A stretch of 51,838 bases of DNA from Mycobacterium phage prophiGD51-2. The stretch lies in sequence record MW584195.1. One strand, given 5' to 3'. This document shows positions 1 to 51,838 of the stretch, in pieces. The position numbers and the translations under genes were made by a program. Within the stretch, counting starts at the first letter, position 1; each line of letters begins with the position of its first letter. The notes beneath the pieces are model-generated. The model searched no databases and was not told the DNA's origin. It saw only the letters and a list, made by a program, of their open reading frames with translations.

Positions 1-43
1 CTGGGGGTCAAGTGGTCGCAGGTTCAAATCCTGTCAGCCCGAC
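1..43 (+). tRNA. 3' end of a tRNA gene (T-arm GCAGG-TTCAAAT-CCTGT plus acceptor 3' strand); attL core. The tRNA 5' part lies upstream of the window and its identity is unresolved.
   Basis: It has a canonical T-stem/T-loop (GGTTCAAATCC) followed by a 7-nt acceptor strand. The exact sequence is repeated at 51796..51838. Confidence 0.7.
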
Positions 44-48
44 ACAGA

Positions 49-80
49 GAACCGCCTCTTCGGAGGCGGTTTTCTTGTTT
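49..80 (+). terminator. Rho-independent terminator directly after the tRNA 3' end (phage-derived P' side)
   Basis: GAACCGCCTC-TTCG-GAGGCGGTT hairpin followed by TTTCTTGTTT. Confidence 0.75.
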
Positions 81-113: not shown

Positions 114-137
114 TCTGACCCCAATTCTGACCCCAAT
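114..137 (+). repeat. Two tandem 12-mers 'TCTGACCCCAAT'; candidate integrase arm-type sites (P' arm)
   Basis: There are exact tandem copies at 114..125 and 126..137. The same motif occurs twice at 51667..51690 near the integrase/attR. Confidence 0.6.
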
Positions 138-208: not shown

Positions 209-964
209 CTACCAGCGGGTCGGCGGCGTACCCGCGCACTGCGCCGTGGCCTGCGGGGTCACGGTCGGGGTGCTGGCTCCGAACGCGTCGCCCTTGCGGG
301 GCGGCTGCAGCGCCACGGTGTAGCCGGTGCAGTAGCCGGTGTCGAGGCGCAGGACGCGCCATCCCTCCGGGGTGGTGTCGATGTATGCGTACGCCCCGCC
401 CCGGTACATCGCGGTGCGCCACCGGAGCGCGCGCTCGGTCTGCTTCTCCACCTCGTCGCTGTAGGTGCGGGCGCTCGCCCCGACCATCTGGCCGACCTCG
501 CCCACATGCTCACCGGCCGTGAGCACCACGCCGTCAGGGAGGCGCACCGCGGTGCCGCTGTACTCCGCGGGGTAGGCGTACGCCTGCCGGCGGTCGGCGG
601 CGAGCTTCGCCGCGGCGCGGTCCACGCCGTCGGGCAGCTGGTCGATCGCCACCACCCCGCGCTCGCGGTCCGCCTTCTTCTTGAGGGCGTCATCGGCGGC
701 GGTCTTCGCTTCGGCGGCGATGCGATTCACCTCGCGCTGATCCACCGCGTGCTGAGCCTCGACGCCGGCCAGGTAGCCCGCGCTCCAGTGATCCTTGCGG
801 CCGTCGTTGTGGCCGTCGACCCACGCGAGGCCGCTGGCGGTCAGCATGCCCACGGCCGCGATGGTGGCGATGCCGTACGGGGTCGACGCCGCTCGGTTGG
901 TGGCACGGCCGACCTTGCTGAGGCCGGCACCGGCACGGTTCACGGTGTCCTTGATCTTGCTCAT
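209..964 (-). CDS. Membrane-anchored hypothetical protein (N-terminal cytoplasmic segment, one TM helix, then a ~190-aa extracytoplasmic domain with Cys residues)
   Basis: ATG at 964 is preceded by AGGAGAAC. The TM segment is 'IATIAAVGMLTASGLAWV'. The in-frame upstream ORF extension is Arg-rich junk. Confidence 0.6.
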   Translation of the reverse strand: MSKIKDTVNRAGAGLSKVGRATNRAASTPYGIATIAAVGMLTASGLAWVDGHNDGRKDHWSAGYLAGVEAQHAVDQREVNRIAAEAKTAADDALKKKADRERGVVAIDQLPDGVDRAAAKLAADRRQAYAYPAEYSGTAVRLPDGVVLTAGEHVGEVGQMVGASARTYSDEVEKQTERALRWRTAMYRGGAYAYIDTTPEGWRVLRLDTGYCTGYTVALQPPRKGDAFGASTPTVTPQATAQCAGTPPTRW

Positions 965-1092
965 GGTGTTCTCCTGGTGTTCTCGGGGCGGTGTGCCCCG
1001 GGTGCTGATTCCTGATCTACGGCTGTCCCGGTCGGTGGTTGTGCCTGTGCCCCGGGCGGCGTTATCGGCCTCTACTGCGGTCTCGGCGTGCG

Positions 1093-1569
1093 TTACGGGC
1101 CACCTCCGGTCACGTTTCCGCTGGTCGTGCCGTAAACGGCCTCGTCCACGGCCGCTGCGACGTCTACCGACGACACGGGCACGGTTTCCGGTGCCGGCCA
1201 CCAACCGTCTCGGCGGCTCGCGTCACGGACCAGCGGCTTCCCGCGCTGCGCGCCCCACCCGCCCGCGGCCCACTTACGGGCGGTCTGCGGCTTGATGGCG
1301 AGGCGGTCGGCGATGTGCGTGAGGCTCTCGCCGCCGAGGTGACAGACCTCCAGCAGCTCGCGCTTGAGCTGGGCGATCTGGGCCTCGTGACGGCTGATCT
1401 CGGCGACGGCGGCGAGGGCGTCGGCGGTCGTGGCGGCGGGCTTCGCGGCCAACTCCGCGAGCTGCCGGGCGGCGGCGACCCACTCATCGAGCAGGCGCTT
1501 CGCGTGCGCCGGCACCATCTCCGCGGCGGCGAGCTTGTTCAGGTCGGTGGCGTTCTGGTGTCGTCCCAT
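1093..1569 (-). CDS. HTH DNA-binding protein (HTH 'ESLTHIADRLAIKPQTARKW'), encoded immediately downstream of the FtsK-like ATPase
   Basis: ATG at 1569 is preceded by AGGAGAAG. It lies 12 nt after the stop of the upstream gene. Confidence 0.6.
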   Translation of the reverse strand: MGRHQNATDLNKLAAAEMVPAHAKRLLDEWVAAARQLAELAAKPAATTADALAAVAEISRHEAQIAQLKRELLEVCHLGGESLTHIADRLAIKPQTARKWAAGGWGAQRGKPLVRDASRRDGWWPAPETVPVSSVDVAAAVDEAVYGTTSGNVTGGGP

Positions 1570-1581
1570 GTCGGTCTTCTC

Positions 1582-3540
1582 CTAGCTCAGGTGGCGTTCG
1601 GGGGCCGGCTCGGCGCCGGGGTCGTAGTCGGGGCTGGTGGGGTCATCGCGGACCCGGTCCGGGTAGGGGCGGAGGTTCTCGTCGTCGAGCCACACCGCCT
1701 GCAGGTCGTCGCTGCTCGGCTCGCTCAGCGGGTGCCACTGCACCCAGGTGCCGTCACCCCCGGCCTCGGCCCCGCGGGGCAGCTGGTACGCCCACCGGCG
1801 GTGTCGCGGTGCCTGCCTGAGCGCCGCGTCGAAACGCTCGGCGTCGGGGGTGCCGGGCGCGTTGAAGAAGCCCCTGAACAGGACCGGTCGCCGGGTGTGC
1901 GGGTCCATGACCACGCCGACACCGCGGTCGTCCGGCGTGATGGTGCCCGCGAGCTCCATCGCGGCCTTCTCCTTGCCCACGAACAACGCGTTGATGTTCA
2001 CGGCCTCGGGCTCTCCGAGCTGGATCAGGGTCCGCGTGTTCGCCCGGATCGACCCCGGGTAACCCTCCACATATGCCGTCTGACCTGCGACGATGAAGAA
2101 AATGCGCAGCTCGCGCGCCTGCGATCCCATGTAATCGAGGCGGGCCTCGGTGAGCTTCGCGGCCTTGGCGGAGTCGCCACCCATCTGCTTCATGTCGCGG
2201 ATAAATGCAGGCAGCTCGTCCATGACGACGAGCAAGGGGCGCGGCCGGTACTTGATGCCGCGGTGAGCCAGCCGCTTCGCGATGCGCTTGCGCCGGTCGA
2301 ACTCATCTCGCATGAACAGGACTGCCCGATGCAGCGGCGCGGGCTTCGAGGTGTCGCCGACCGCGTAGTGCACGATGCCCGGAATAGTGGGGTCGGTGGC
2401 GAGTTCCCGCAGGTCAGAGCCCTCCTTGGCGTCCCAGAGGATGATGTCCGCGCAACCCTGAATCGCTGCTGCACGAACGCAAATCGCCAGCCACACGGTC
2501 TTTCCCGAACCGGTCGGGCCGAAGACAGCCCCGTGCGGGGTGACGTCCAGGTTCGCCGTGAGCAGCACCATGCGTCCGGTCTCCGGATCCGTGCGAACGC
2601 CGATCGGCAACGTGAAGTCCTTCGCAGCTGCGTACTGTTCGGCCTCCGTGCGGGCGCGGGTGAACATCGACGGGTCGAGCGCCGCGGACTTCGGCAGCTC
2701 GGTGCGCAGCGGGGCCGTGTTCAGGTGGAGAACAGGGTCGACCGTTCCGGGGGCAGCGTCCACGACGAGGTCCGGTGCGCGCAGCGCCTGCGCAAGCTTG
2801 CCGGTCGCCGCGACCACCTGGGCGATGGTCATGCCGGGCGGCAGCGACAGGCGCGCGGTGCCTCCGCGGGCGTCCTCCGACCACTCGGTGACCGCCGGCC
2901 ACCGGCGGGCCTTGGTGCGCTGATTCGTCTGGAACAGGCCCGCGGTGTTGAAGACCTTGCGCTGCCCATCACGGTCGAGGAACAGCCGAGCGGCGGTGCC
3001 GTGCGCCTTCCACGCGAGGTGTGCGCCGGTGACATTCTCTCGGTCTAGGTAGATCGTCACGCCGTCCTCGGCGTACTTCGCGGTGAACGTTCCGAGGTTG
3101 CCCCGGCCGTGCAGCTCGTTCAGCGCGAGGGCGGCCATCTCGCGGCGGTCGGTGCCCGGCGGGCAGGTGATCGCTGCGCTGATCGCGTGGCCGTTCACCG
3201 CGACGTCCACGGTGAACGGGCTGTCGTCGGGCACGGGCAGCGCACGGCGGACACCGTCCACCAGCCACTCGACACCGGACAGCGGGGCTTCCGGCGTCCA
3301 CTCTGCGGCGAGCGGCTGCGCGGCGGCGATGGCCGGCAGCATCGCGGCGTAACGGTCACACTCGGCGATCAGCCGCTCTTCCTCCGTCGCCTTGCGCTTC
3401 TCATCCCGCAGGGTGTCGGCACTGTCTTCGCGCTTCGGGCCGGGACTGGCGGGCTCGTCCTGACCTGCAGGAACGGGTTCCTGCGTCGGGGGCTCCGGCT
3501 TCTTCGCCGCGGTGGTGAGCAGGTCGTCGAGCGGGTTCAT
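1582..3540 (-). CDS. FtsK/SpoIIIE-family P-loop ATPase (TraB/TraSA-like), no predicted TM segment
   Basis: Walker A is 'GPTGSGKT' and Walker B is 'LLVVMDE'. The ATG at 3540 overlaps the upstream gene's TGA stop (TGATG coupling). The listed ORF's upstream 229 codons are Arg-rich out-of-frame-type junk. Confidence 0.75.
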   Translation of the reverse strand: MNPLDDLLTTAAKKPEPPTQEPVPAGQDEPASPGPKREDSADTLRDEKRKATEEERLIAECDRYAAMLPAIAAAQPLAAEWTPEAPLSGVEWLVDGVRRALPVPDDSPFTVDVAVNGHAISAAITCPPGTDRREMAALALNELHGRGNLGTFTAKYAEDGVTIYLDRENVTGAHLAWKAHGTAARLFLDRDGQRKVFNTAGLFQTNQRTKARRWPAVTEWSEDARGGTARLSLPPGMTIAQVVAATGKLAQALRAPDLVVDAAPGTVDPVLHLNTAPLRTELPKSAALDPSMFTRARTEAEQYAAAKDFTLPIGVRTDPETGRMVLLTANLDVTPHGAVFGPTGSGKTVWLAICVRAAAIQGCADIILWDAKEGSDLRELATDPTIPGIVHYAVGDTSKPAPLHRAVLFMRDEFDRRKRIAKRLAHRGIKYRPRPLLVVMDELPAFIRDMKQMGGDSAKAAKLTEARLDYMGSQARELRIFFIVAGQTAYVEGYPGSIRANTRTLIQLGEPEAVNINALFVGKEKAAMELAGTITPDDRGVGVVMDPHTRRPVLFRGFFNAPGTPDAERFDAALRQAPRHRRWAYQLPRGAEAGGDGTWVQWHPLSEPSSDDLQAVWLDDENLRPYPDRVRDDPTSPDYDPGAEPAPERHLS

Positions 3541-4712
3541 CACGACCACACGTCCTCGTCGGGCTGTGCGGTCTGCGCCTGCGGCTCCTCGCGGGTGTTC
3601 GTCACGGTGAGCGTCCAGGTGCCGGCCAGGTGATCGCGCGTCCACTCGCCGACCGCTCGGCGGATGTGAGCGGCGGCCAGGAACGGGGCGGTCAGCTGCG
3701 CGAGCTGCCGATCGCCGAAGTCCACCGTGGACGGCTCGACGTTCAGCTGCACATCGCCGTTCGGCGAGACGTTCACCCCGATCAGCGTCGCGGCGGGCAC
3801 GAACGTCGCGCGGCCCTTGCTGTCCACCGCGTGCTGACCGTGGCCGATCGACTCGCAGGCGGTCGACCAGGCGGCGGTTGCCGGGGTGAACGCTCCGAGT
3901 TCGGTAACGAGCGCCTCCGCGGCCGAGCCGGCCGGGCGCTGGATGCCGCCGGACACGGCGTGCACGTACGCATCGCGACCGGTGACGGTGGGCTCCGGAA
4001 CGTGCACGGGCTGCGGTCGGGAGATGACCACGTCGGGGTGGAGCGGGTCGTAGACGGTCGGAGCGTTCGCCGCCGCGTGCTGTGCCTCGGCGAGCGCCTG
4101 CTGATACTCGCGCTCCTTGGCCTGGAACCCCTTCTCGCGGGCCTCGGCGCTCTGGTAGATCTTCACGGCGATCGCGGCGGCGATGCCGGCGGGCACAGCG
4201 ACGAGGATCGTCGCGGAGATGCTCCACCCGGACAGGGAGTAGCCGACCGCACCGAGCGCAGCGAGCACGACGCCGGCCGCGCGGTTCTTGGTCAGCCGGG
4301 CGGCGTTGATACCGGCCGCGGGGCCGGTATCGGACCGGCCGGTGAGGTCGAGCGCCTCGTCGCGGTCGAGCTTGCGGAACAGCATGCCGATGCCGGCCAG
4401 GATGAAGAGCACCGCGATCCAGGCGTACCAGTGGTCCAGCGGGGCGATGAACTGCTCAAACGGCGACTGCTCTGGCTTCGCGGCCGGCCTGTCCCACGAG
4501 TCGAGCACGTCCTGCAACGGGTGCTGCGTGGCGGTCTTCGCCCCGGCCGGAGGAGTGCAGTCCGACGGGACGCGCACGACGTTGCCGAGCGCGTCGAGCA
4601 TGCAGGTGTCACTGGGATCAGCCGACGCGCGGCCGGCACCCGTCACGGCGAGCGCAACGTAGGTGGCACCGGCTGCGGCGACCAGGTACGGAGTCCGGAA
4701 GAAGCGGTTCAT
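3540..4712 (-). CDS. Secreted/polytopic membrane protein (signal-peptide-like N-terminus, Cys-containing extracytoplasmic segment, 3-4 TM helices, ~200-aa C-terminal domain)
   Basis: ATG at 4712; an alternative GTG start lies at 4721. The hydrophobic stretches are 'WYAWIAVLFILAGIGMLF' and 'AAGVVLAALGAVGYSLSGWSISATILVAVPAGIAAAIAV'. Confidence 0.55.
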   Translation of the reverse strand: MNRFFRTPYLVAAAGATYVALAVTGAGRASADPSDTCMLDALGNVVRVPSDCTPPAGAKTATQHPLQDVLDSWDRPAAKPEQSPFEQFIAPLDHWYAWIAVLFILAGIGMLFRKLDRDEALDLTGRSDTGPAAGINAARLTKNRAAGVVLAALGAVGYSLSGWSISATILVAVPAGIAAAIAVKIYQSAEAREKGFQAKEREYQQALAEAQHAAANAPTVYDPLHPDVVISRPQPVHVPEPTVTGRDAYVHAVSGGIQRPAGSAAEALVTELGAFTPATAAWSTACESIGHGQHAVDSKGRATFVPAATLIGVNVSPNGDVQLNVEPSTVDFGDRQLAQLTAPFLAAAHIRRAVGEWTRDHLAGTWTLTVTNTREEPQAQTAQPDEDVWS

Positions 4713-4980
4713 GGCACCCACTGTCCGGATACCGGTTGCCGGGGCAGCAGTATCGGGGCCGGTTACGGCGCTGCGGCGCTTGAGGTTTCGGAGCGTCCGA
4801 GTGTCAGCGGGTGCGTCACGATGTCAGCCAGTGCAATGTGTGAAGTACGTCACAGTGGGCGCGGAGCGCCGTTCTCGGTACTGCTGCCGTGTCGAAACAG
4901 GCTGGTAGGACTGCAGTTACGCGACACACGCGACGTACGCGCCACGGGCGCTTGAGCTTTCGACAGAGGGGAACCTAACC

Positions 4981-6088: not shown

Positions 6089-6287
6089 GCGCCGGCACTC
6101 AGAGGCTCTGGCGCGGGGAAGGGAACCACTCCGTCCCATAGTCGGCGATGTGGAGGACCGACACCGTCAGCGTAGCAACCACCGTCGACAGTTCCGCGCA
6201 ATCCGTATCGCAAGCTCCACCAGTATATTTCGGATTGAGTGTGCTACCATAGAGACAGGCTAGCAAACGCTACGGGAGGGAACCACC

Positions 6288-6521
6288 GTGTACATCAGCC
6301 ATAGTCAGACGATCGACCAGGAGGTCGGCCGGCGCCTCGCCGAGGCGCGCACCACCGCCGGTGTCACCGTGCGCGACGCCGCCATCGAGACCACGATCGA
6401 CCGCAGCGTGATCAGTCGGATCGAGGGCGGAACCCGCCCCTGCCGCGTGCATGAGCTGCTCGCGCTCGCGGGGGTCTACGGGCTCACCGGCTCCGCCGTG
6501 ATCGAGGGGGTGCGCTGGTGA
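6288..6521 (+). CDS. XRE/Cro-C1-family HTH transcriptional regulator
   Basis: The HTH is 'VTVRDAAIETTIDRSVISRIEGG'. The GTG start directly follows GGGAGGGAACCACC. Confidence 0.7.
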   Translation: MYISHSQTIDQEVGRRLAEARTTAGVTVRDAAIETTIDRSVISRIEGGTRPCRVHELLALAGVYGLTGSAVIEGVRW

Positions 6522-47025: not shown

Positions 47026-47181
47026 GGTGGTTCCTCTCGTTGAACGGGTACTGCTTGTTTGCTGTGATTCCACACTATCGTGGGCGAACCACGTCTAGCC
47101 AGGTCTAACGCGAATGTTTAAGGTGATTCTAAGTTTGCTGGGCGGTATGTCCGATTCGATCCCACGGTGTGGGACGAATGG

Positions 47182-49152: not shown

Positions 49153-49517
49153 GCCGCCACCGCCTCGGTGCGCGAGTCGAGCTGCGCAAGGTACCGGCGC
49201 ATGAGACGGCTGCCGTTCGCGCGGAGCACCTCCTCGACCCGGGCCATGTCGATCAGGCCGTCGCGGTGGAGCTCCAGCACCCCGGCCACGTCGTCCGGGT
49301 GAGTGATCCTCTCGGTGATCCGGTGGCCCCACCGCACGTGGTCGAGGACGACCCAGTCAGCCTCGGCGGGGTTACCGATCATCGGCGCGGCGTGGGGGCG
49401 CCGGTAGGCGTGGAGCGTTCCTGCCGCGTAGCAGGTGGAGTAACAGGGGCGGCACAGGCCGCGCCCATAGATGGAGCGCGACCGAGAGCAGCGGACGCAG
49501 GTGCGGGTGGTTCCCAT
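49149..49517 (-). CDS. Zinc-ribbon protein (Cys4 N-terminus paralogous to 47919..48176)
   Basis: The ATG follows GAGAGGAACCACACC. The N-terminus is 'CVRCSRSRSIYGRGLCRPCYSTCY'. Confidence 0.6.
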   Translation of the reverse strand: MGTTRTCVRCSRSRSIYGRGLCRPCYSTCYAAGTLHAYRRPHAAPMIGNPAEADWVVLDHVRWGHRITERITHPDDVAGVLELHRDGLIDMARVEEVLRANGSRLMRRYLAQLDSRTEAVAA

Positions 49518-49544
49518 GGTGTGGTTCCTCTCGGAGGCCGCGGG

Positions 49545-49796
49545 TCAGGCGGCAGTGGGCTTGCTGGTGTACCGACGGTCGAGCCACGCCGCGAGGTCGC
49601 TCTCTCGCACGAGGCGCTTGCGGCCGATCCGGACAGTGGGGATCGGATCCTCGGTCTGGTCGGCGTCGGTCAGCGTGTAGACGGTTCGGATGCTCTGATG
49701 GATCGCGCCGGCCACCTCGTCGAAGGCGAAGAGCCGGTCGGCGAGCGCGAGCACCGGGGGCGAGTTCGTGTTGCGCGGGGCAGGTGTCGTATGCAT
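49545..49796 (-). CDS. Cro/Xis-like small HTH protein, first gene of the leftward early operon, divergent from the repressor
   Basis: Contains 'VRIGRKRLVRESDLAAWLD' (HTH_17/AlpA-like). The ATG at 49796 has no SD and may be leaderless. It overlaps an inverted repeat. Confidence 0.6.
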   Translation of the reverse strand: MHTTPAPRNTNSPPVLALADRLFAFDEVAGAIHQSIRTVYTLTDADQTEDPIPTVRIGRKRLVRESDLAAWLDRRYTSKPTAA

Positions 49797-49842
49797 GACG
49801 CATACGCTACCGGACGTAATGCGGATGCGCAATGCATCCGCA
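49789..49842. promoter_or_regulatory. Two inverted repeats with shared core ATGC-N5-GCAT (operator candidates) in the repressor/cro-like divergent region
   Basis: IR2 is GTATGC-ATGAC-GCATAC (49789..49805). IR1 is TGCGGATGC-GCAAT-GCATCCGCA (49820..49842). Confidence 0.6.
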
Positions 49843-49890
49843 CACAGCGAGGTGCAGCGCATTGCGGCGATGTGCAGTATGCTGCCGGTT

Positions 49891-50421
49891 ATGACTAGAC
49901 CAGTTACAGCCCACGGACCCGGATCCGTCGCCGTTGCCTACAACGTCCGCCGCCGTCGCAATGAGCTGGACATGAGCGGCACCGAACTGCGAGACCGACT
50001 GTCCGCCTTCGGATTAAACGTTCACCGCAGCTGGGTGTCAGAGGTGGAGAACCGCAAGCGAACCGTCGACGTCGACGAGCTTCTCGTGCTCGCGGCGGCG
50101 CTTACCGTCAGCCCGTCCACATTGCTGATGCCCCGGGCGGTCACGCCGGAGGACGTCGTGCCGACGGTGAGCGGCCCGCGCGACGCGCGGGACGTCTGGG
50201 ATTGGATAGCGGCCGAGCGCTCGCTCGGGAGCAGTTGGCTTGACGCCGACGACGAGGCGGAACGGCGCCGGTACCGCGCGGTGGCGCGCCCACCGTGGGT
50301 GGCATTCGCCGAGTCAGCGGTTGAGCACGGCGCCGCCGTGCAGGTCTCCCGCGACGTCCCCACGGATGAAGAGGTACCCGCCGAGGTACTGGAAGAAGAT
50401 CGCGCGGAGGCCAAACGATGA
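49891..50421 (+). CDS. Prophage repressor (XRE-family HTH)
   Basis: The HTH is 'MSGTELRDRLSAFGLNVHRSWVSEVENRKR'. The ATG at 49891 has no SD, which suggests a leaderless transcript. The gene ends in ATGA overlap with the integrase start. Confidence 0.65.
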   Translation: MTRPVTAHGPGSVAVAYNVRRRRNELDMSGTELRDRLSAFGLNVHRSWVSEVENRKRTVDVDELLVLAAALTVSPSTLLMPRAVTPEDVVPTVSGPRDARDVWDWIAAERSLGSSWLDADDEAERRRYRAVARPPWVAFAESAVEHGAAVQVSRDVPTDEEVPAEVLEEDRAEAKR

Positions 50422-51623
50422 CCGAGCAGAAGCGCACGCGGCGCAGCAACGGGGAAGCCAGCTACCGGAAGCGCTCCGACGGCCGGTGGGAGGGCCGGAT
50501 CCGGATCGTTGATGATCGCGGCGAGGTGCACCGGCCGAGCGCCTACGGCAAGACCAAGGCTCTGGCTAAGGCCGCGTTGGAGGAGAAGATCAGCCGCATC
50601 CGTGAGGGCGTCGCCGTCGTCGACTCCCGCAGCACAGTGGCCGAGGTCGCGCGCCGCTGGTGTGAGGTGACGCTGCAGGCGAGCCCGCGGAAGCGGGCCA
50701 CGAAGGAGCTGTACGACGCGCGCAGCCGTCTGCACATCGAGACCGGGCACCTCGCTGCGATCCCGCTGAACCGGCTCACGGCCGTGCACGTCGAGGAATG
50801 GATTCTGGCGGAGCGCGCGGGCGGTACCGCGCCGAGCAGCCAGCGCACGGACTACGCGGTGCTGCGCGCCGTCCTCGACGGCGCGGTCCGGGACAAGTTG
50901 GTCGCGCGGAACGTCTGCGAGACGGTCAAGCGCCCGCATGTGCCGAAGCGCGAGGCCGTTCACCTCGACCCGGCGCAGGTTGCTGCATTGCTCGCCGCGA
51001 CCGCCGGAAGCAGCCACGCGCTACCCATCCGCCTCTACGCACGGACCGGTGCACGCCGCGGCGAGGTGTTGGCGCTGCGGTGGAAGGATGTCGACCTCGT
51101 GAACGGCACCGTCACCGTCGCCGGGACCATGTCCGGGAGCGGGAAGAAGTTGCGCCGGGAGCCCGAGGCGAAGAGCAGCTCGGCGCACCGGCCGCTGCCG
51201 ATCGGGGCCGACCTTGTGGAGGAGCTGCGGACGTGGCGGAAGCGTCAGCAGCAGCACCGCGCCGCCGCGATGCAGCTGTGGGAGGACGTCGAGGGCTTGG
51301 TCTTCACGACTGAGTTCGGCCGGCCGCTCGATCCTCGGAACGTCCTCCGCACGGTGCAGACCGCCGCGCAGAGGTTGGGGCTCCCGAAGGAAACCGGGGT
51401 GCACACGCTCCGGCACAGCGCGGCCACCGCGCTGCTCGAAGGCGGGGCGCACCTGAAGCTCGTCTCGTCGATCCTCGGCCACTCGGACACGAGCATTACC
51501 GCCAACATCTACGGGCACGCGACGGACTCGGCGGCGCGTGCCGCCCTCGACGCGCTCGCTGTCACGCAGGCCGCGAAGCCGGCGGAGCCGGAGGACGGTC
51601 GGCACCTGCGCGCGGTTCCGTGA
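50418..51623 (+). CDS. int: Tyrosine integrase
   Basis: The catalytic residues are in conserved context: R in 'ARRGEVLAL', H-x-x-R in 'HTLRHSAAT', H in 'ILGHSD', and Y in 'ANIYGH'. It lies adjacent to attR. Confidence 0.9.
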   Translation: MTEQKRTRRSNGEASYRKRSDGRWEGRIRIVDDRGEVHRPSAYGKTKALAKAALEEKISRIREGVAVVDSRSTVAEVARRWCEVTLQASPRKRATKELYDARSRLHIETGHLAAIPLNRLTAVHVEEWILAERAGGTAPSSQRTDYAVLRAVLDGAVRDKLVARNVCETVKRPHVPKREAVHLDPAQVAALLAATAGSSHALPIRLYARTGARRGEVLALRWKDVDLVNGTVTVAGTMSGSGKKLRREPEAKSSSAHRPLPIGADLVEELRTWRKRQQQHRAAAMQLWEDVEGLVFTTEFGRPLDPRNVLRTVQTAAQRLGLPKETGVHTLRHSAATALLEGGAHLKLVSSILGHSDTSITANIYGHATDSAARAALDALAVTQAAKPAEPEDGRHLRAVP

Positions 51624-51666: not shown

Positions 51667-51690
51667 TCTGACCCCATTTCTGACCCCAAT
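51667..51690 (+). repeat. Two tandem copies of TCTGACCCCA(A)T between int and attR (arm-type sites, P arm)
   Basis: The copies are at 51667..51677 and 51679..51690. A third partial TCTGACCAG sits at ~51711. The same motif occurs at 114..137. Confidence 0.6.
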
Positions 51691-51795
51691 TGGACTCGGA
51701 AACGGTAGGTCTCTGACCAGCTGCGTCATGCATACGCGCAGGTCAGTTGCGGTGAGGTGCACCCGCTGGCAGTGGGGTGCACCTGGTGCCCATTG

Positions 51796-51838
51796 CTGGG
51801 GGTCAAGTGGTCGCAGGTTCAAATCCTGTCAGCCCGAC
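51796..51838 (+). repeat. attR core: exact 43-nt repeat of window positions 1..43 (tRNA 3' fragment)
   Basis: It is identical to the window start. Identity may extend beyond the window edges. Confidence 0.85.

What the first reader, a model, noticed from the sequence alone, without database searches (positions are those of the whole stretch)
49789..49900. Genetic switch: two ATGC-N5-GCAT inverted repeats between divergent cro-like and repressor genes; both genes lack SD and may be leaderless
IR2 (GTATGC-ATGAC-GCATAC) overlaps the cro-like start codon, and IR1 (TGCGGATGC-GCAAT-GCATCCGCA) lies 15 bp away. They share the core half-site ATGC/GCAT with identical 5-bp spacing, as expected for operators bound by one dimeric HTH repressor. 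The repressor ATG at 49891 and the cro-like ATG at 49796 have no Shine-Dalgarno sequence, whereas most other genes here have a strong extended one. This is consistent with leaderless transcripts typical of actinobacterial regulatory genes.
Basis: seen in the sequence. Interest (0 to 1): 0.55.

Follow-up and report, generated by a model that had tools for sequence, protein, structure and literature searches.

The report
Prophage lysis-lysogeny switch, leaderless genes
This is the on/off control region of a dormant virus in Mycobacteroides abscessus: two mirror-image DNA sites cover the promoter of the virus's early genes, and both control genes appear to be transcribed without a leader; it is an ordinary kind of switch that has not been described for this virus group.

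Summary
IR2 (49789-49805) and IR1 (49820-49842) are the only two ATGC-N5-GCAT sites in the 51.8-kb window, and they are 16/20 identical to each other.

The window is one complete Mycobacteroides abscessus prophage, bounded by a 43-bp att repeat. The 95-bp region separates an XRE-type repressor gene, which overlaps the integrase gene, from the first gene of the early operon. That gene is an HTH_17 excisionase-family protein, not a Cro-fold protein.

I read a leftward early promoter (-35 TTGCGC, 17-bp spacer, -10 TAGCGT) whose +1 is the A of the ATG at 49796. IR1 covers its -35 and IR2 covers its +1.

Both genes have TANNNT exactly 7 nt before the start codon and no Shine-Dalgarno sequence. Across the whole window this pattern precedes a long ORF only at these two starts. 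It recurs in relatives with 50-87% identical repressors even where the surrounding sequence differs. IR2 keeps its symmetry through a two-sided change in an M. chelonae relative.

New findings: a third operator-like site lies in the int-proximal attP arm, and a 10-bp-phased TGC array lies over the repressor promoter, which suggests a P2 Cox/186 Apl-like role for the HTH_17 protein.

Protein binding and transcription starts remain untested. This is a new member of a known kind, of moderate interest.

The parts
49545..49796 (-). First gene of the early (leftward) operon: 83-aa HTH_17 excisionase-family protein, in the 'cro' position, with a C-terminal -AA
   Evidence: Pfam HTH_17 28.4 bits against cut-off 27. 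phrog_66 'excisionase and transcriptional regulator'. TIGR01764 scores below its cut-off. The start is fixed by an upstream in-frame stop in L002 and by the conserved ATG. Followed on the same strand by a 122-aa gene, a glutaredoxin gene and RusA.
49789..49805 (.). IR2 / O1: GTATGC-ATGAC-GCATAC, centred 1 bp upstream of the early-gene ATG; covers +1 and the discriminator of the early promoter
   Evidence: L002 has GTGTGC-ATGGA-GCACAC at the same position, a symmetric two-sided change.
49804..49809 (-). -10 of the early promoter (TAGCGT), 7 nt before the ATG at 49796
   Evidence: Read from the sequence. Equivalent elements: TAATGT in L002, TAACAT in L006, TATCAT in L009, TAGCAT in L010, TAGCGT in L012, all at N7.
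49820..49842 (.). IR1 / O2: TGCGGATGC-GCAAT-GCATCCGCA, centred 35 bp upstream of the early-gene +1; covers the -35
   Evidence: Perfect in the window and L001; decayed in L003 and L002.
49827..49832 (-). -35 of the early promoter (TTGCGC), 17-bp spacer to the -10
   Evidence: TTGCGC plus 17 bp plus TANNNT is kept in the window, L001, L003 and L002.
49833..49888 (+). 10-bp-phased TGC array: TGCATC, (CACAGC), TGCAGC, TGCGGC, TGCAGT, TGCCGG. Runs from IR1 across the repressor promoter; candidate sites for the HTH_17 protein
   Evidence: The only place in the window with 4 or more of 6 phased TGC (it has 5/6); 200 shuffles never reach 5. It is also the window maximum of a motif-free phasing score. 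GCAG-type hexamers are kept in register in L002.
49878..49883 (+). -10 of the repressor promoter (TATGCT), 7 nt before the ATG at 49891; no recognisable -35
   Evidence: Equivalent elements: TAAGGT in L002, TACGCT in L006, TAGATT in L010, TATGCT in L015 at N7; TAGGAT in L012 at N6.
49891..50421 (+). Repressor gene: 176 aa, XRE/cI-type five-helix HTH (residues 10-79) plus a conserved C-terminal domain with no solved relative
   Evidence: Pfam HTH_31 and HTH_3 score below their cut-offs. AF2 model pLDDT 85.6. Foldseek matches C.AhdI, SinR, P22 c2 and TP901-1 CI at rmsd 1.0-1.6 A. 2328 representative relatives.
50418..51623 (+). Tyrosine integrase; overlaps the repressor stop codon (ATGA) and has its own GGAGG
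   Evidence: Pfam Phage_integrase 5e-27; phrog_1; upstream sequence.
51719..51736 (.). O3: third operator-like site (AGCTGC-GTCAT-GCATAC; core TGC-N5-GCA) in the int-proximal attP arm. 51723-51736 is an exact 14-nt copy of the minus strand of IR2
   Evidence: In 5 of 6 loci the best match to this site in the rest of the locus lies in that locus's own switch; in L002 the best match lies 39 bp inside the HTH_17 gene.
51713..51746 (.). Inverted pair of CTGACC integrase arm-type motifs flanking O3
   Evidence: CTGACCCCA direct repeats at 51668-51676, 51680-51688, 115-123 and 127-135.
51748..51792 (+). Second, weaker 10-bp-phased TGC array between O3 and the att core: TGCGGT, TGCACC, GGCAGT, TGCACC, TGCCCA
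   Evidence: The only other plus-strand place in the window with 3 of 4 phased TGC. Its sequence similarity to the switch array is not above background.
51796..51838 (+). att core (3' end of a tRNA gene), repeated at window 1-43; these repeats are the two prophage ends
   Evidence: 43-nt exact repeat. Host genes follow it in L002.

Best explanation
The 95-bp region is the lysis-lysogeny switch of a complete Mycobacteroides abscessus prophage. Two back-to-back promoters fire outward.

The leftward early promoter has -35 TTGCGC (49832..49827), a 17-bp spacer and -10 TAGCGT (49809..49804). It starts transcription at the A of the ATG at 49796. The rightward repressor promoter has -10 TATGCT (49878-49883) and no -35. 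It starts at the A of the ATG at 49891 and transcribes the repressor and integrase genes together. Both mRNAs are therefore leaderless.

The 176-aa XRE-type repressor most likely binds as a dimer to the two related 17-bp palindromes G[T/G]ATGC-N5-GCAT[A/C]C. IR1 lies over the -35 and IR2 over the +1, so RNA polymerase is kept off the early operon in the lysogen. The first gene of that operon, an HTH_17 excisionase-family protein, is thereby under direct repressor control.

That protein probably acts as the excision directionality factor. It may also act as the counter-repressor of the repressor promoter through the helically phased TGC repeats.

Shown from sequence: the repeats, their uniqueness, their position on conserved promoter elements, the absence of Shine-Dalgarno sequences, and the conserved -10 spacing. 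Inferred: which protein binds where, the transcription starts, and the roles of the third site and the phased array.
For: - **Uniqueness and relatedness of the palindromes.**
- **IR2 conservation.** IR2 sits at the identical position in L001, L003 (one mismatch) and L002. In L002 both arms changed together, GTATGC/GCATAC to GTGTGC/GCACAC.
- **Early promoter.** -35 TTGCGC, 17-bp spacer and TANNNT are conserved in four loci.
- **-10 spacing.** TANNNT lies exactly 7 nt before the start in 13 of 14 repressor/HTH_17 starts of seven loci, against 1 of 36 other genes. It extends to L012 and L015. In the whole window TANNNT-N7-RTG occurs 3 times, and only these two are followed by an ORF of 50 or more codons.
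- **Literature on mycobacterial promoters.** They have ANNNT at -6 to -13, no conserved -35, and about 24% leaderless transcripts (PMC6448022).
- **Repressor fold.** It matches dimeric palindrome-binding HTH proteins: C.AhdI, C.BclI, SinR, P22 c2, TP901-1 CI.
- **Covariation.** Recognition-helix residue 47 is Ser where the half-site is GCAT (window, L001, L003) and Gly where it is GCAC (L002, L006).
- **Known layout.** M. abscessus prophage repressors are known to be divergent from cro-like genes and linked to int (PMC8092301).
- **Parallel in P2-like phages.** The repressor's operators lie over the lytic promoter, and the RDF's operators are phased direct repeats (PMC7498355).
Against: - There are no binding or 5'-end data.
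- IR1 is perfect only in the window and L001 and decays in L003 and L002.
- Relatives with 50-63% identical repressors (L006, L010) have no equivalent perfect palindrome.
- The centre-to-centre distance of 34 bp is not a whole number of helical turns.
- A third related site lies in the attP arm, a place where an excisionase rather than a repressor would be expected to bind.
- The HTH_17 protein also differs between lineages in its predicted recognition helix, so the covariation does not single out the repressor.
- Pfam HTH_3 and HTH_31 scores of the repressor are below their curated cut-offs.
- L009 has CATGCT and L013 has TAGAAC instead of TANNNT before the repressor gene.
Confidence: 0.62

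Rival explanations
1. The palindromes IR1, IR2 and the attP-arm site are bound by the HTH_17 excisionase-family protein, not by the XRE repressor. That protein would autoregulate its own promoter and assemble the excisive complex at the att arm, as 186 Apl and P2 Cox do. The repressor would act through other sites.
For: A 14-nt exact copy of IR2 lies between inverted integrase arm-type motifs in the int-proximal attP arm. In 5 of 6 loci the best match to that arm site lies in the locus's own switch, and in L002 it lies 39 bp inside the HTH_17 gene. The matches include lineage-specific variants: GTTATGCA in L006 and ATsATCCATA in L010. RDFs of P2-like phages are the first gene of the early operon and bind both att and the switch (PMC7498355). 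The gene scores as HTH_17 and phrog_66 'excisionase and transcriptional regulator'.
Against: RDFs and HTH_17 relatives such as BldC bind head-to-tail to direct repeats one helical turn apart, not to palindromes with two-fold symmetry (PMC7498355). The XRE fold of the repressor is the one that typically reads such palindromes. Operators over the -35 and +1 of the lytic promoter are where an immunity repressor must act. No other candidate repressor operator is found in the window.
Confidence: 0.2
2. The genes are not leaderless. Transcription starts further upstream, and the repeats act as RNA hairpins in 5' leaders, affecting mRNA stability, attenuation or translation, rather than as protein-binding DNA.
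For: Both repeats fold as stable hairpins on either strand: -27.9 and -25.2 kcal/mol for 62 nt, z-scores -2.35 and -2.78. A two-sided change such as that in L002 also preserves a stem. About half of leadered mycobacterial mRNAs lack a Shine-Dalgarno sequence (PMC6448022).
Against: The -10 hexamer sits exactly 7 nt before both start codons in divergent lineages, which puts IR1 upstream of both transcripts and cuts IR2 in half at +1. There is no Rfam match. IR1 decays in L002 and L003 without compensation. There is no room for another promoter: 95 bp lie between the two starts.
Confidence: 0.08
3. The repeats are chance or neutral palindromes in a short intergenic region and have no regulatory function.
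For: Each palindrome is short. Sites with 10/12 matches occur at chance frequency elsewhere. Distant relatives lack them.
Against: Two perfect 12/12 sites 34 bp apart where none is expected. They are 16/20 identical to each other. They sit exactly on the promoter elements. They are conserved, with a symmetric change in L002. A third related site is the best match in the entire window.
Confidence: 0.03

Closest known systems
Lambdoid immunity switches (lambda, 434, P22 cI/c2-Cro at OR)
   Same: Divergent repressor and early-lytic genes. The repressor has a five-helix cI/XRE-type HTH. Related palindromic operators overlap the lytic promoter. The repressor mRNA is leaderless, as lambda cI mRNA from PRM is (my own knowledge).
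   Different: Two operators 34 bp apart instead of three tandem ones. The partner protein is HTH_17 excisionase-like, not Cro-fold. There is no S24 peptidase (LexA-like) domain. The repressor and integrase genes form one operon. The early gene is leaderless too.
P2 Cox / 186 Apl switches (P2-like coliphages; PMC7498355)
   Same: Gene order is att-int-repressor, divergent from an HTH protein that is the first gene of the early operon and is excisionase-like. The repressor's operators lie over the lytic promoter. Helically phased direct repeats lie over the lysogenic promoter, and weaker ones lie in the att arm.
   Different: The promoters are back-to-back, not face-to-face. No sequence homology to Cox or Apl was shown. 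The host is an actinobacterium and the phage is siphovirus-like. The palindrome class of site, not only the phased repeats, recurs in the att arm. The dual function is untested.
Mycobacteriophage BPs gp33/gp34 immunity cassette (PMC4557955)
   Same: The order int-rep divergent from a cro-like gene in a mycobacterial phage. A palindromic repressor operator at the early promoter, with a weaker partner site. The repressor and integrase genes are transcribed from one promoter. Additional repressor sites lie elsewhere in the genome.
   Different: BPs uses integration-dependent immunity, with attP inside the repressor gene. Here the att core lies about 170 bp beyond int and the repressor gene is intact. 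The operator sequence is different (CGACATATGTCG). The repressor is not homologous at the level tested.
M. abscessus prophage immunity groups (Dedrick et al. 2021, PMC8092301)
   Same: [quoted passage not shown]
   Different: No operators, promoters or 5' ends are described there for this type. Only MabJ stoperators have been described (PMC9934374). No close relative exists among 50,697 GenBank phage records.

Membership tests
cI/XRE-type phage immunity repressor with palindromic operators | Five-helix cI/Cro-type HTH DNA-binding domain | tested here: met
   AF2 model pLDDT 85.6, helices 10-25, 30-39, 48-53, 61-70, 75-79. Foldseek pdb matches NHTF, C.AhdI, SinR, P22 c2 and TP901-1 CI NTD with TM 0.7-0.87 and rmsd 1.0-1.6 A. 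Pfam HTH_31 (24.1 against 27) and HTH_3 (20.5 against 23) are just below their cut-offs.
cI/XRE-type phage immunity repressor with palindromic operators | Gene divergent from the early lytic operon, next to integrase | tested here: met
   the same layout in all 15 loci fetched, although L014 has no HTH_17 hit on record for its divergent gene.
cI/XRE-type phage immunity repressor with palindromic operators | Two-fold symmetric operators overlapping the lytic promoter | tested here: met
   IR1 over the -35 and IR2 over the +1. This concerns sequence only.
cI/XRE-type phage immunity repressor with palindromic operators | The repressor binds these operators and confers immunity | not testable with these tools
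   Needs EMSA or footprinting and immunity assays.
Lambda-type inducible repressor | C-terminal S24 (LexA-like) autocleavage domain | tested here: not met
   No Peptidase_S24 hit in Pfam. The C-terminal residues 80-176 have no PDB match.
Cro family | Cro/C1-type HTH or lambda Cro fold in the divergent early gene | tested here: not met
   The only Pfam hit is HTH_17. phrog_66 is an excisionase/regulator family.
Excisionase / RDF (HTH_17, TIGR01764) | Sequence membership | tested here: inconclusive
   HTH_17 28.4 bits against 27 is met. TIGR01764 19.2 against 28.8 is not met. The AF2 model is poor (pLDDT 64.7). Foldseek found nothing significant, though RdfS, the GIsul2 excisionase, BldC and TorI are among the best TM-scores.
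Excisionase / RDF (HTH_17, TIGR01764) | Stimulates Int-mediated excision and binds an att arm | not testable with these tools
   The only evidence is sites in the att arm.
P2 Cox / 186 Apl dual-function RDF-regulators | [quoted passage not shown] | tested here: met
P2 Cox / 186 Apl dual-function RDF-regulators | Direct repeats about one helical turn apart, both at the switch and at att | tested here: inconclusive
   The switch array is unique in the window (5/6 phased TGC; shuffles never reach 5). The att-arm array has 3/4 and is the only other plus-strand place. The two arrays are not more alike in sequence than background.
P2 Cox / 186 Apl dual-function RDF-regulators | Face-to-face lytic and lysogenic promoters | tested here: not met
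   The promoters read here are back-to-back, with the two +1 positions 95 bp apart.
Integration-dependent immunity (BPs type) | attP core inside the repressor gene, so the prophage repressor is truncated | tested here: not met
   The att core lies at 51796-51838, about 170 bp beyond int. The repressor and integrase genes are contiguous in the prophage.
Mycobacterial leaderless mRNAs | SigA-type -10 (T)ANNNT at -6 to -13 of the start codon, no Shine-Dalgarno sequence, ATG/GTG start | tested here: met
   Criteria from PMC6448022.
Mycobacterial leaderless mRNAs | Mapped 5' triphosphate end within 0-5 nt of the start codon | not testable with these tools
   Needs 5'-RACE or dRNA-seq of a lysogen and of induced cells.

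The most novel reading that the evidence does not exclude
The switch couples immunity and excision physically. Both classes of site recur in the int-proximal attP arm: the repressor-type palindrome O3, set between inverted integrase arm-type sites, and the helically phased TGC repeats. The immunity repressor would therefore occupy the recombination site itself, blocking excisive assembly or looping 1.9 kb to the switch around the repressor-integrase operon. The HTH_17 protein would be a Cox/Apl-like dual excisionase and anti-repressor. It is made from a leaderless mRNA and carries a conserved -AA degradation tag. This would be a P2/186-type logic that arose in an actinobacterial siphovirus with back-to-back leaderless promoters.
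Probability: 0.25. Interest if true: 0.6.

Novelty: new member of a known kind. Interest (0 to 1): 0.36.

Why it matters
M. abscessus is a drug-resistant pathogen for which phage therapy is being developed. Prophage immunity groups determine which therapeutic phages can infect a strain. About 30 immunity groups are predicted (PMC8092301), but operators have been described only for the MabJ type (PMC9934374).

This analysis gives a concrete operator consensus, promoter map and start-codon assignment for one more group. It corrects over-extended gene calls. It provides a compact 95-bp repressor-controlled leaderless promoter pair that could serve as a genetic tool in mycobacteria. The third site in the att arm and the phased array make the question of whether excision and immunity are directly coupled testable with two purified proteins and two DNA fragments.

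Tried and rejected
- **Extra operators at the suggested places (6100-6290, 47040-47180).** None found at 1 mismatch or fewer. Sites with 10/12 matches are at chance level.
- **E. coli-type promoter and terminator scan of 49500-50100.** Nothing found. The promoters were read by hand and supported by comparison between loci.
- **Relatives in GTDB species genomes and IMG/VR.** None found, with either a single protein or a 5-sequence profile. A 39-sequence alignment was too diverse to search with.
- **GenBank phages.** Only weak integrase, tail and terminase matches.
- **Rfam.** No family in the window.
- **Integration-dependent immunity.** Rejected, because the att core lies beyond int.
- **N-terminally extended repressor (198-217 aa, as in Logan calls P0001 and P0003) and 105-aa HTH_17 call (P0004).** Rejected. 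The extension coincides with the regulatory DNA, the MTRP start and its -10 are conserved, NCBI calls the short repressor form in M. chelonae, and L002 has a stop upstream of the HTH_17 ATG. An open frame of 40 codons is expected about 44% of the time at this G+C content (my calculation).
- **Sequence similarity between the phased arrays at the switch and the att arm.** Not above background.
- **Fold search of the HTH_17 model.** Not significant, because the model is poor.
- **Equivalent perfect palindromes in L006 and L010.** Not found. L006 has GT[CT]ATGCAC at +1 and at -35.
Full report
**What the window is**

Window positions 1-43 are repeated exactly at 51796-51838. The repeat is the 3' end of a tRNA gene (T-arm GGTTCAAATCC). 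In a syntenic M. chelonae locus, host genes follow this core. The window is therefore one complete integrated prophage from attL to attR.

A protein 100% identical to the early-gene product over its 83 residues, but called 22 residues longer, is annotated in Mycobacteroides abscessus. Tail, terminase and portal genes give only 70-80% nucleotide matches to Mycobacterium, Gordonia and Rhodococcus phages, and no GenBank phage covers the regulatory region.

A rough GC3-based gene map shows four blocks:
- minus-strand cargo genes at the left end;
- a long plus-strand structural block up to about 44.6 kb;
- a minus-strand early block from 49.8 kb down to about 44.9 kb;
- the plus-strand repressor and integrase genes at the right end.

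**The observation**

IR2 (GTATGC-ATGAC-GCATAC, 49789-49805) and IR1 (TGCGGATGC-GCAAT-GCATCCGCA, 49820-49842) are present as described, with 14 bp between them rather than 15.
- ATGC-N5-GCAT occurs only twice in 51,838 bp, both times here, against 0.36 expected.
- With a 12-position symmetric model these are the only perfect sites. None scores 11/12, and 10/12 sites are at chance frequency.
- The two 20-mers are 16/20 identical.

**The genes**

- *Plus-strand gene (49891-50421).* It scores just below the Pfam cut-offs for HTH_31 and HTH_3. Its AlphaFold model (pLDDT 85.6) has a five-helix cI/XRE domain (residues 10-79). This superposes at 1.0-1.6 A on C.AhdI, C.BclI, SinR, P22 c2, TP901-1 CI and ClgR. 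To my knowledge these proteins bind as dimers to inverted repeats. Residues 80-176 have no solved relative. They are conserved in a large actinobacterial family of 2328 representative proteins at E<=1e-3. No S24 peptidase domain is present.
- *Integrase.* The repressor stop codon overlaps the start codon of a tyrosine integrase gene (ATGA), and that gene has its own GGAGG.
- *Minus-strand gene (49796-49545).* It is HTH_17 (28.4 bits against 27), phrog_66 'excisionase and transcriptional regulator', and below cut-off for TIGR01764. Its model is poor, and the fold search only leans towards excisionases. It is 'cro-like' by position only: it is the first gene of the early operon, followed by a 122-aa gene, a glutaredoxin gene and RusA.

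**Start codons**

Gene callers disagree: 105 aa against 81-83 aa for the early gene, and 198-202 aa against 145 aa for the repressor. The short forms are right.
- L002 has an in-frame stop 14 codons upstream of the early-gene ATG.
- The repressor N-terminus MTRP(V/I) is conserved, with an abrupt loss of conservation upstream.
- NCBI calls that same ATG in M. chelonae.

**Promoters and leaderless transcripts**

Read on the minus strand, the early gene is preceded by TTGCGC, 17 bp, TAGCGT, 7 nt, then ATG. The repressor gene is preceded by TATGCT, 7 nt, then ATG. Neither has a Shine-Dalgarno sequence.

I fetched syntenic loci (HTH_17 gene divergent from the repressor-integrase pair) through repressor homologues. 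Their repressor identities to the window are:

| Locus | Repressor identity | Source |
|---|---|---|
| L001 | 97% | |
| L002 (M. chelonae) | 87% | |
| L003-L005 | 73% | |
| L006-L008 | 63% | |
| L009 (Tsukamurella) | 51% | |
| L012 | 51% | |
| L010-L011 (another M. abscessus element) | 50% | |
| L013-L014 (M. canettii) | 41% | |
| L015 (Rhodococcus) | 35% | |

In seven loci, 13 of 14 repressor and early-gene starts have TANNNT exactly 7 nt upstream, with different hexamers:
- early gene: TAATGT, TAACAT, TATCAT, TAGCAT;
- repressor gene: TAAGGT, TACGCT, TAGATT.

Only 1 of 36 other called genes has TANNNT within N5-N9, and about three quarters of them have GGAG/GAGG-type sequences. L012 and L015 add further cases. 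L009 (repressor), L013 and the L015 early gene are exceptions.

In the whole window, on both strands, TANNNT-N7-(A/G)TG occurs three times. Only two of these are followed by an ORF of 50 or more codons, and they are exactly these two starts.

Mycobacterial SigA promoters have (T)ANNNT at -6 to -13 and no conserved -35, and about a quarter of transcripts are leaderless (PMC6448022). Leaderless expression of both genes is therefore well supported by comparison, though not measured.

**Where the repeats sit**

- IR2 is centred 1 bp upstream of the early +1. It spans the last two bases of the -10 through +8.
- IR1 is centred at -35, and its central GCGCAA is the complement of the -35 hexamer.
- Relative to the repressor promoter, IR1 lies at -71 to -49.

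This is where an immunity repressor's operators are expected.

**Conservation of the repeats**

- IR2 is identical in L001 and has one arm mismatch in L003.
- In L002 it is GTGTGC-ATGGA-GCACAC at the identical position. Both arms changed symmetrically.
- IR1 is perfect only in the window and L001. In L002 only the left arm and the -35 centre remain.
- L002's repressor also lacks the last 31 residues. This is a single coincidence that I cannot interpret.
- L006 and L010 have no equivalent perfect palindrome.
- L006 has GT(C/T)ATGCAC at +1 and at -35, 32 bp apart.
- L009 has its own CTGGAT-C-ATCCAG at -30.

Operator sequences therefore diverge with immunity specificity, as expected.

Recognition-helix residue 47 is Ser where the half-site reads GCAT (window, L001, L003) and Gly where it reads GCAC (L002, L006). 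This is weak support for the repressor as the binding protein, because there are only two lineages with Gly and the HTH_17 protein also varies.

**A third site**

The best non-perfect hit of the operator model is at 51719-51735, in the int-proximal attP arm. Positions 51723-51736 are an exact 14-nt copy of the minus strand of IR2. The site keeps the symmetric core TGC-N5-GCA. It lies between an inverted pair of CTGACC motifs, and that motif also forms CTGACCCCA direct repeats on both att arms. These are presumably integrase arm-type sites.

I ran an unbiased test. I took the central 15-mer of this arm site and searched the rest of each locus on both strands.
- In the window, the three best of about 100,000 positions all fall in the switch: IR2 14/15, IR1 12/15, IR2 on the other strand 12/15.
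- The single best match also falls in the switch in L001, L003, L006 and L010.
- In L002 the best match lies 39 bp inside the early gene.
- Lineage-specific variants are shared between arm site and switch: GTTATGCA in L006 and ATsATCCATA in L010.

One protein therefore probably recognises the switch palindromes and the arm site. This is the main argument for the rival model, in which the excisionase-like protein is that protein. The same arm segment could also fold as an RNA hairpin (-18.2 kcal/mol, z = -1.5), which is unremarkable.

**A phased array**

From the right arm of IR1 to the repressor's -10 and discriminator, TGC recurs at exact 10-bp intervals: 49833, 49853, 49863, 49873 and 49883, with CACAGC at 49843.
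- This is the only place in the window with 4 or more of 6 phased TGC, and 200 shuffles never reach 5.
- It is also the maximum of a motif-free phasing score.
- L002 keeps GCAG-type hexamers in the same register while the spacers differ.
- L003 and L009 also have phased arrays in the switch.
- The only other plus-strand place with 3 of 4 phased TGC is the att arm between the third site and the core (51748-51778).

Recombination directionality factors, including 186 Apl and P2 Cox, bind direct repeats one helical turn apart at both att and the switch, and they are encoded by the first early gene (PMC7498355). The array is therefore a candidate binding region for the HTH_17 protein over the repressor promoter. 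One caution applies: the two arrays are not more similar in sequence than background, and the TGC motif was chosen after looking at the region.

**Model and rivals**

The best-supported reading is an ordinary repressor-controlled switch. The XRE repressor binds IR1 and IR2 and blocks a leaderless early promoter. The repressor-integrase operon is itself transcribed as a leaderless mRNA.

The excisionase-like first early gene would then be induced on derepression. This would explain how excision is withheld in a lysogen that makes integrase together with the repressor. That last step is inference from the operon structure.

The rivals are:
- the HTH_17 protein binds the palindromes (0.2);
- the repeats act as RNA hairpins in leaders (0.08);
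- the repeats arose by chance (0.03).

**Comparison and novelty**

The layout matches the general description of M. abscessus prophages (PMC8092301). It resembles the lambdoid, BPs (PMC4557955) and P2/186 switches in different respects. It is not integration-dependent immunity.

No operators or promoters have been described for this type in the papers I could search; only MabJ stoperators have (PMC9934374).

It is a new member of a known kind. The third site in the att arm and the phased array are the only features that could make it more than that.

Noticed in passing
window 1-43 and 51796-51838: An exact 43-bp direct repeat that is the 3' end of a tRNA gene. The window is exactly one prophage from attL to attR. 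ARAGORN finds no complete tRNA inside it. All Mycobacteroides relatives whose sequence reaches that far (L001-L003, L006, L010) use the same core.
   Followed up: partly
window 50-76: Just inside attL there is a G+C-rich hairpin followed by a T-run (aaccgcctcttcggaggcggttttctt). It looks like a phage-supplied terminator for the tRNA gene that integration rebuilds. L002 shows the host's own terminator after attR.
   Followed up: no
window 115-135, 51668-51688, 51713-51746, 51756-51783: attP arm anatomy: CTGACCCCA direct repeats on both arms, an inverted CTGACC pair around the third operator-like site, and two GGTGCACC palindromes 20 bp apart next to the core. These are probably integrase arm-type and accessory sites.
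   Followed up: partly
window 49545-49553 (C-terminus of the HTH_17 protein) and the same gene in L001-L015: All ten HTH_17 early-gene products end in -AA (KPTAA, KPIAAA, VDAA, AEAA, RRAAA, GDAA, PGAA) although the preceding residues differ. This is an ssrA-like end of the kind noted for Int and Rep of integration-dependent systems (PMC8092301), and it suggests the protein is short-lived.
   Followed up: no
window 49792-49796 and equivalents: In 7 of the 8 loci whose early gene has the leaderless-type -10, the gene starts ATGCA (second codon His or Gln), although the N-termini are otherwise unrelated. The exception is L006, which starts ATGACC. The conservation looks DNA-level: TGCA is also the core of the operators and of the phased repeats.
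   Followed up: no
window 47040-47180 (and L002 about 410): An A+T-richer intergenic stretch inside the early operon has 10-bp-phased hexamers (CTATCG, CGAACC, CTAGCC, CTAACG at 47075). The same is seen in L002 (CTAGCG, CTAACG, CTAGCC, CTAACG). It has no operator-like palindrome. It may be a second regulatory or origin-like region.
   Followed up: no
L002 3001-3438 and 2930-2955: The M. chelonae repressor is 145 aa and lacks the last 31 residues. In the same locus IR1 has lost its right arm. This may link the C-terminal tail to use of the second operator, but it is a single case.
   Followed up: no
window 49768-49890 and 49797-49862: Public gene calls over-extend both genes into the regulatory region: 198 and 202 aa for the repressor, 105 aa for the early gene. 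The plus-strand frame upstream of the repressor ATG stays open in the four closest loci and contains an ATG (49795) that overlaps the minus-strand ATG in CATG. I regard this as a by-product of conserved DNA.
   Followed up: partly
L010 1428-2056: The second M. abscessus element carries two further HTH_17 genes downstream of the first early gene. One of them (start 2056) has TAACGT 8 nt before its GTG and no Shine-Dalgarno sequence, so it may be a third leaderless gene.
   Followed up: no
window 209-4721: Minus-strand genes lie between attL and the structural block, including ORFs of 331 and 393 aa. They are in the position where M. abscessus prophages carry toxin, immunity or defence cargo (PMC8092301). 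I did not analyse them.
   Followed up: no
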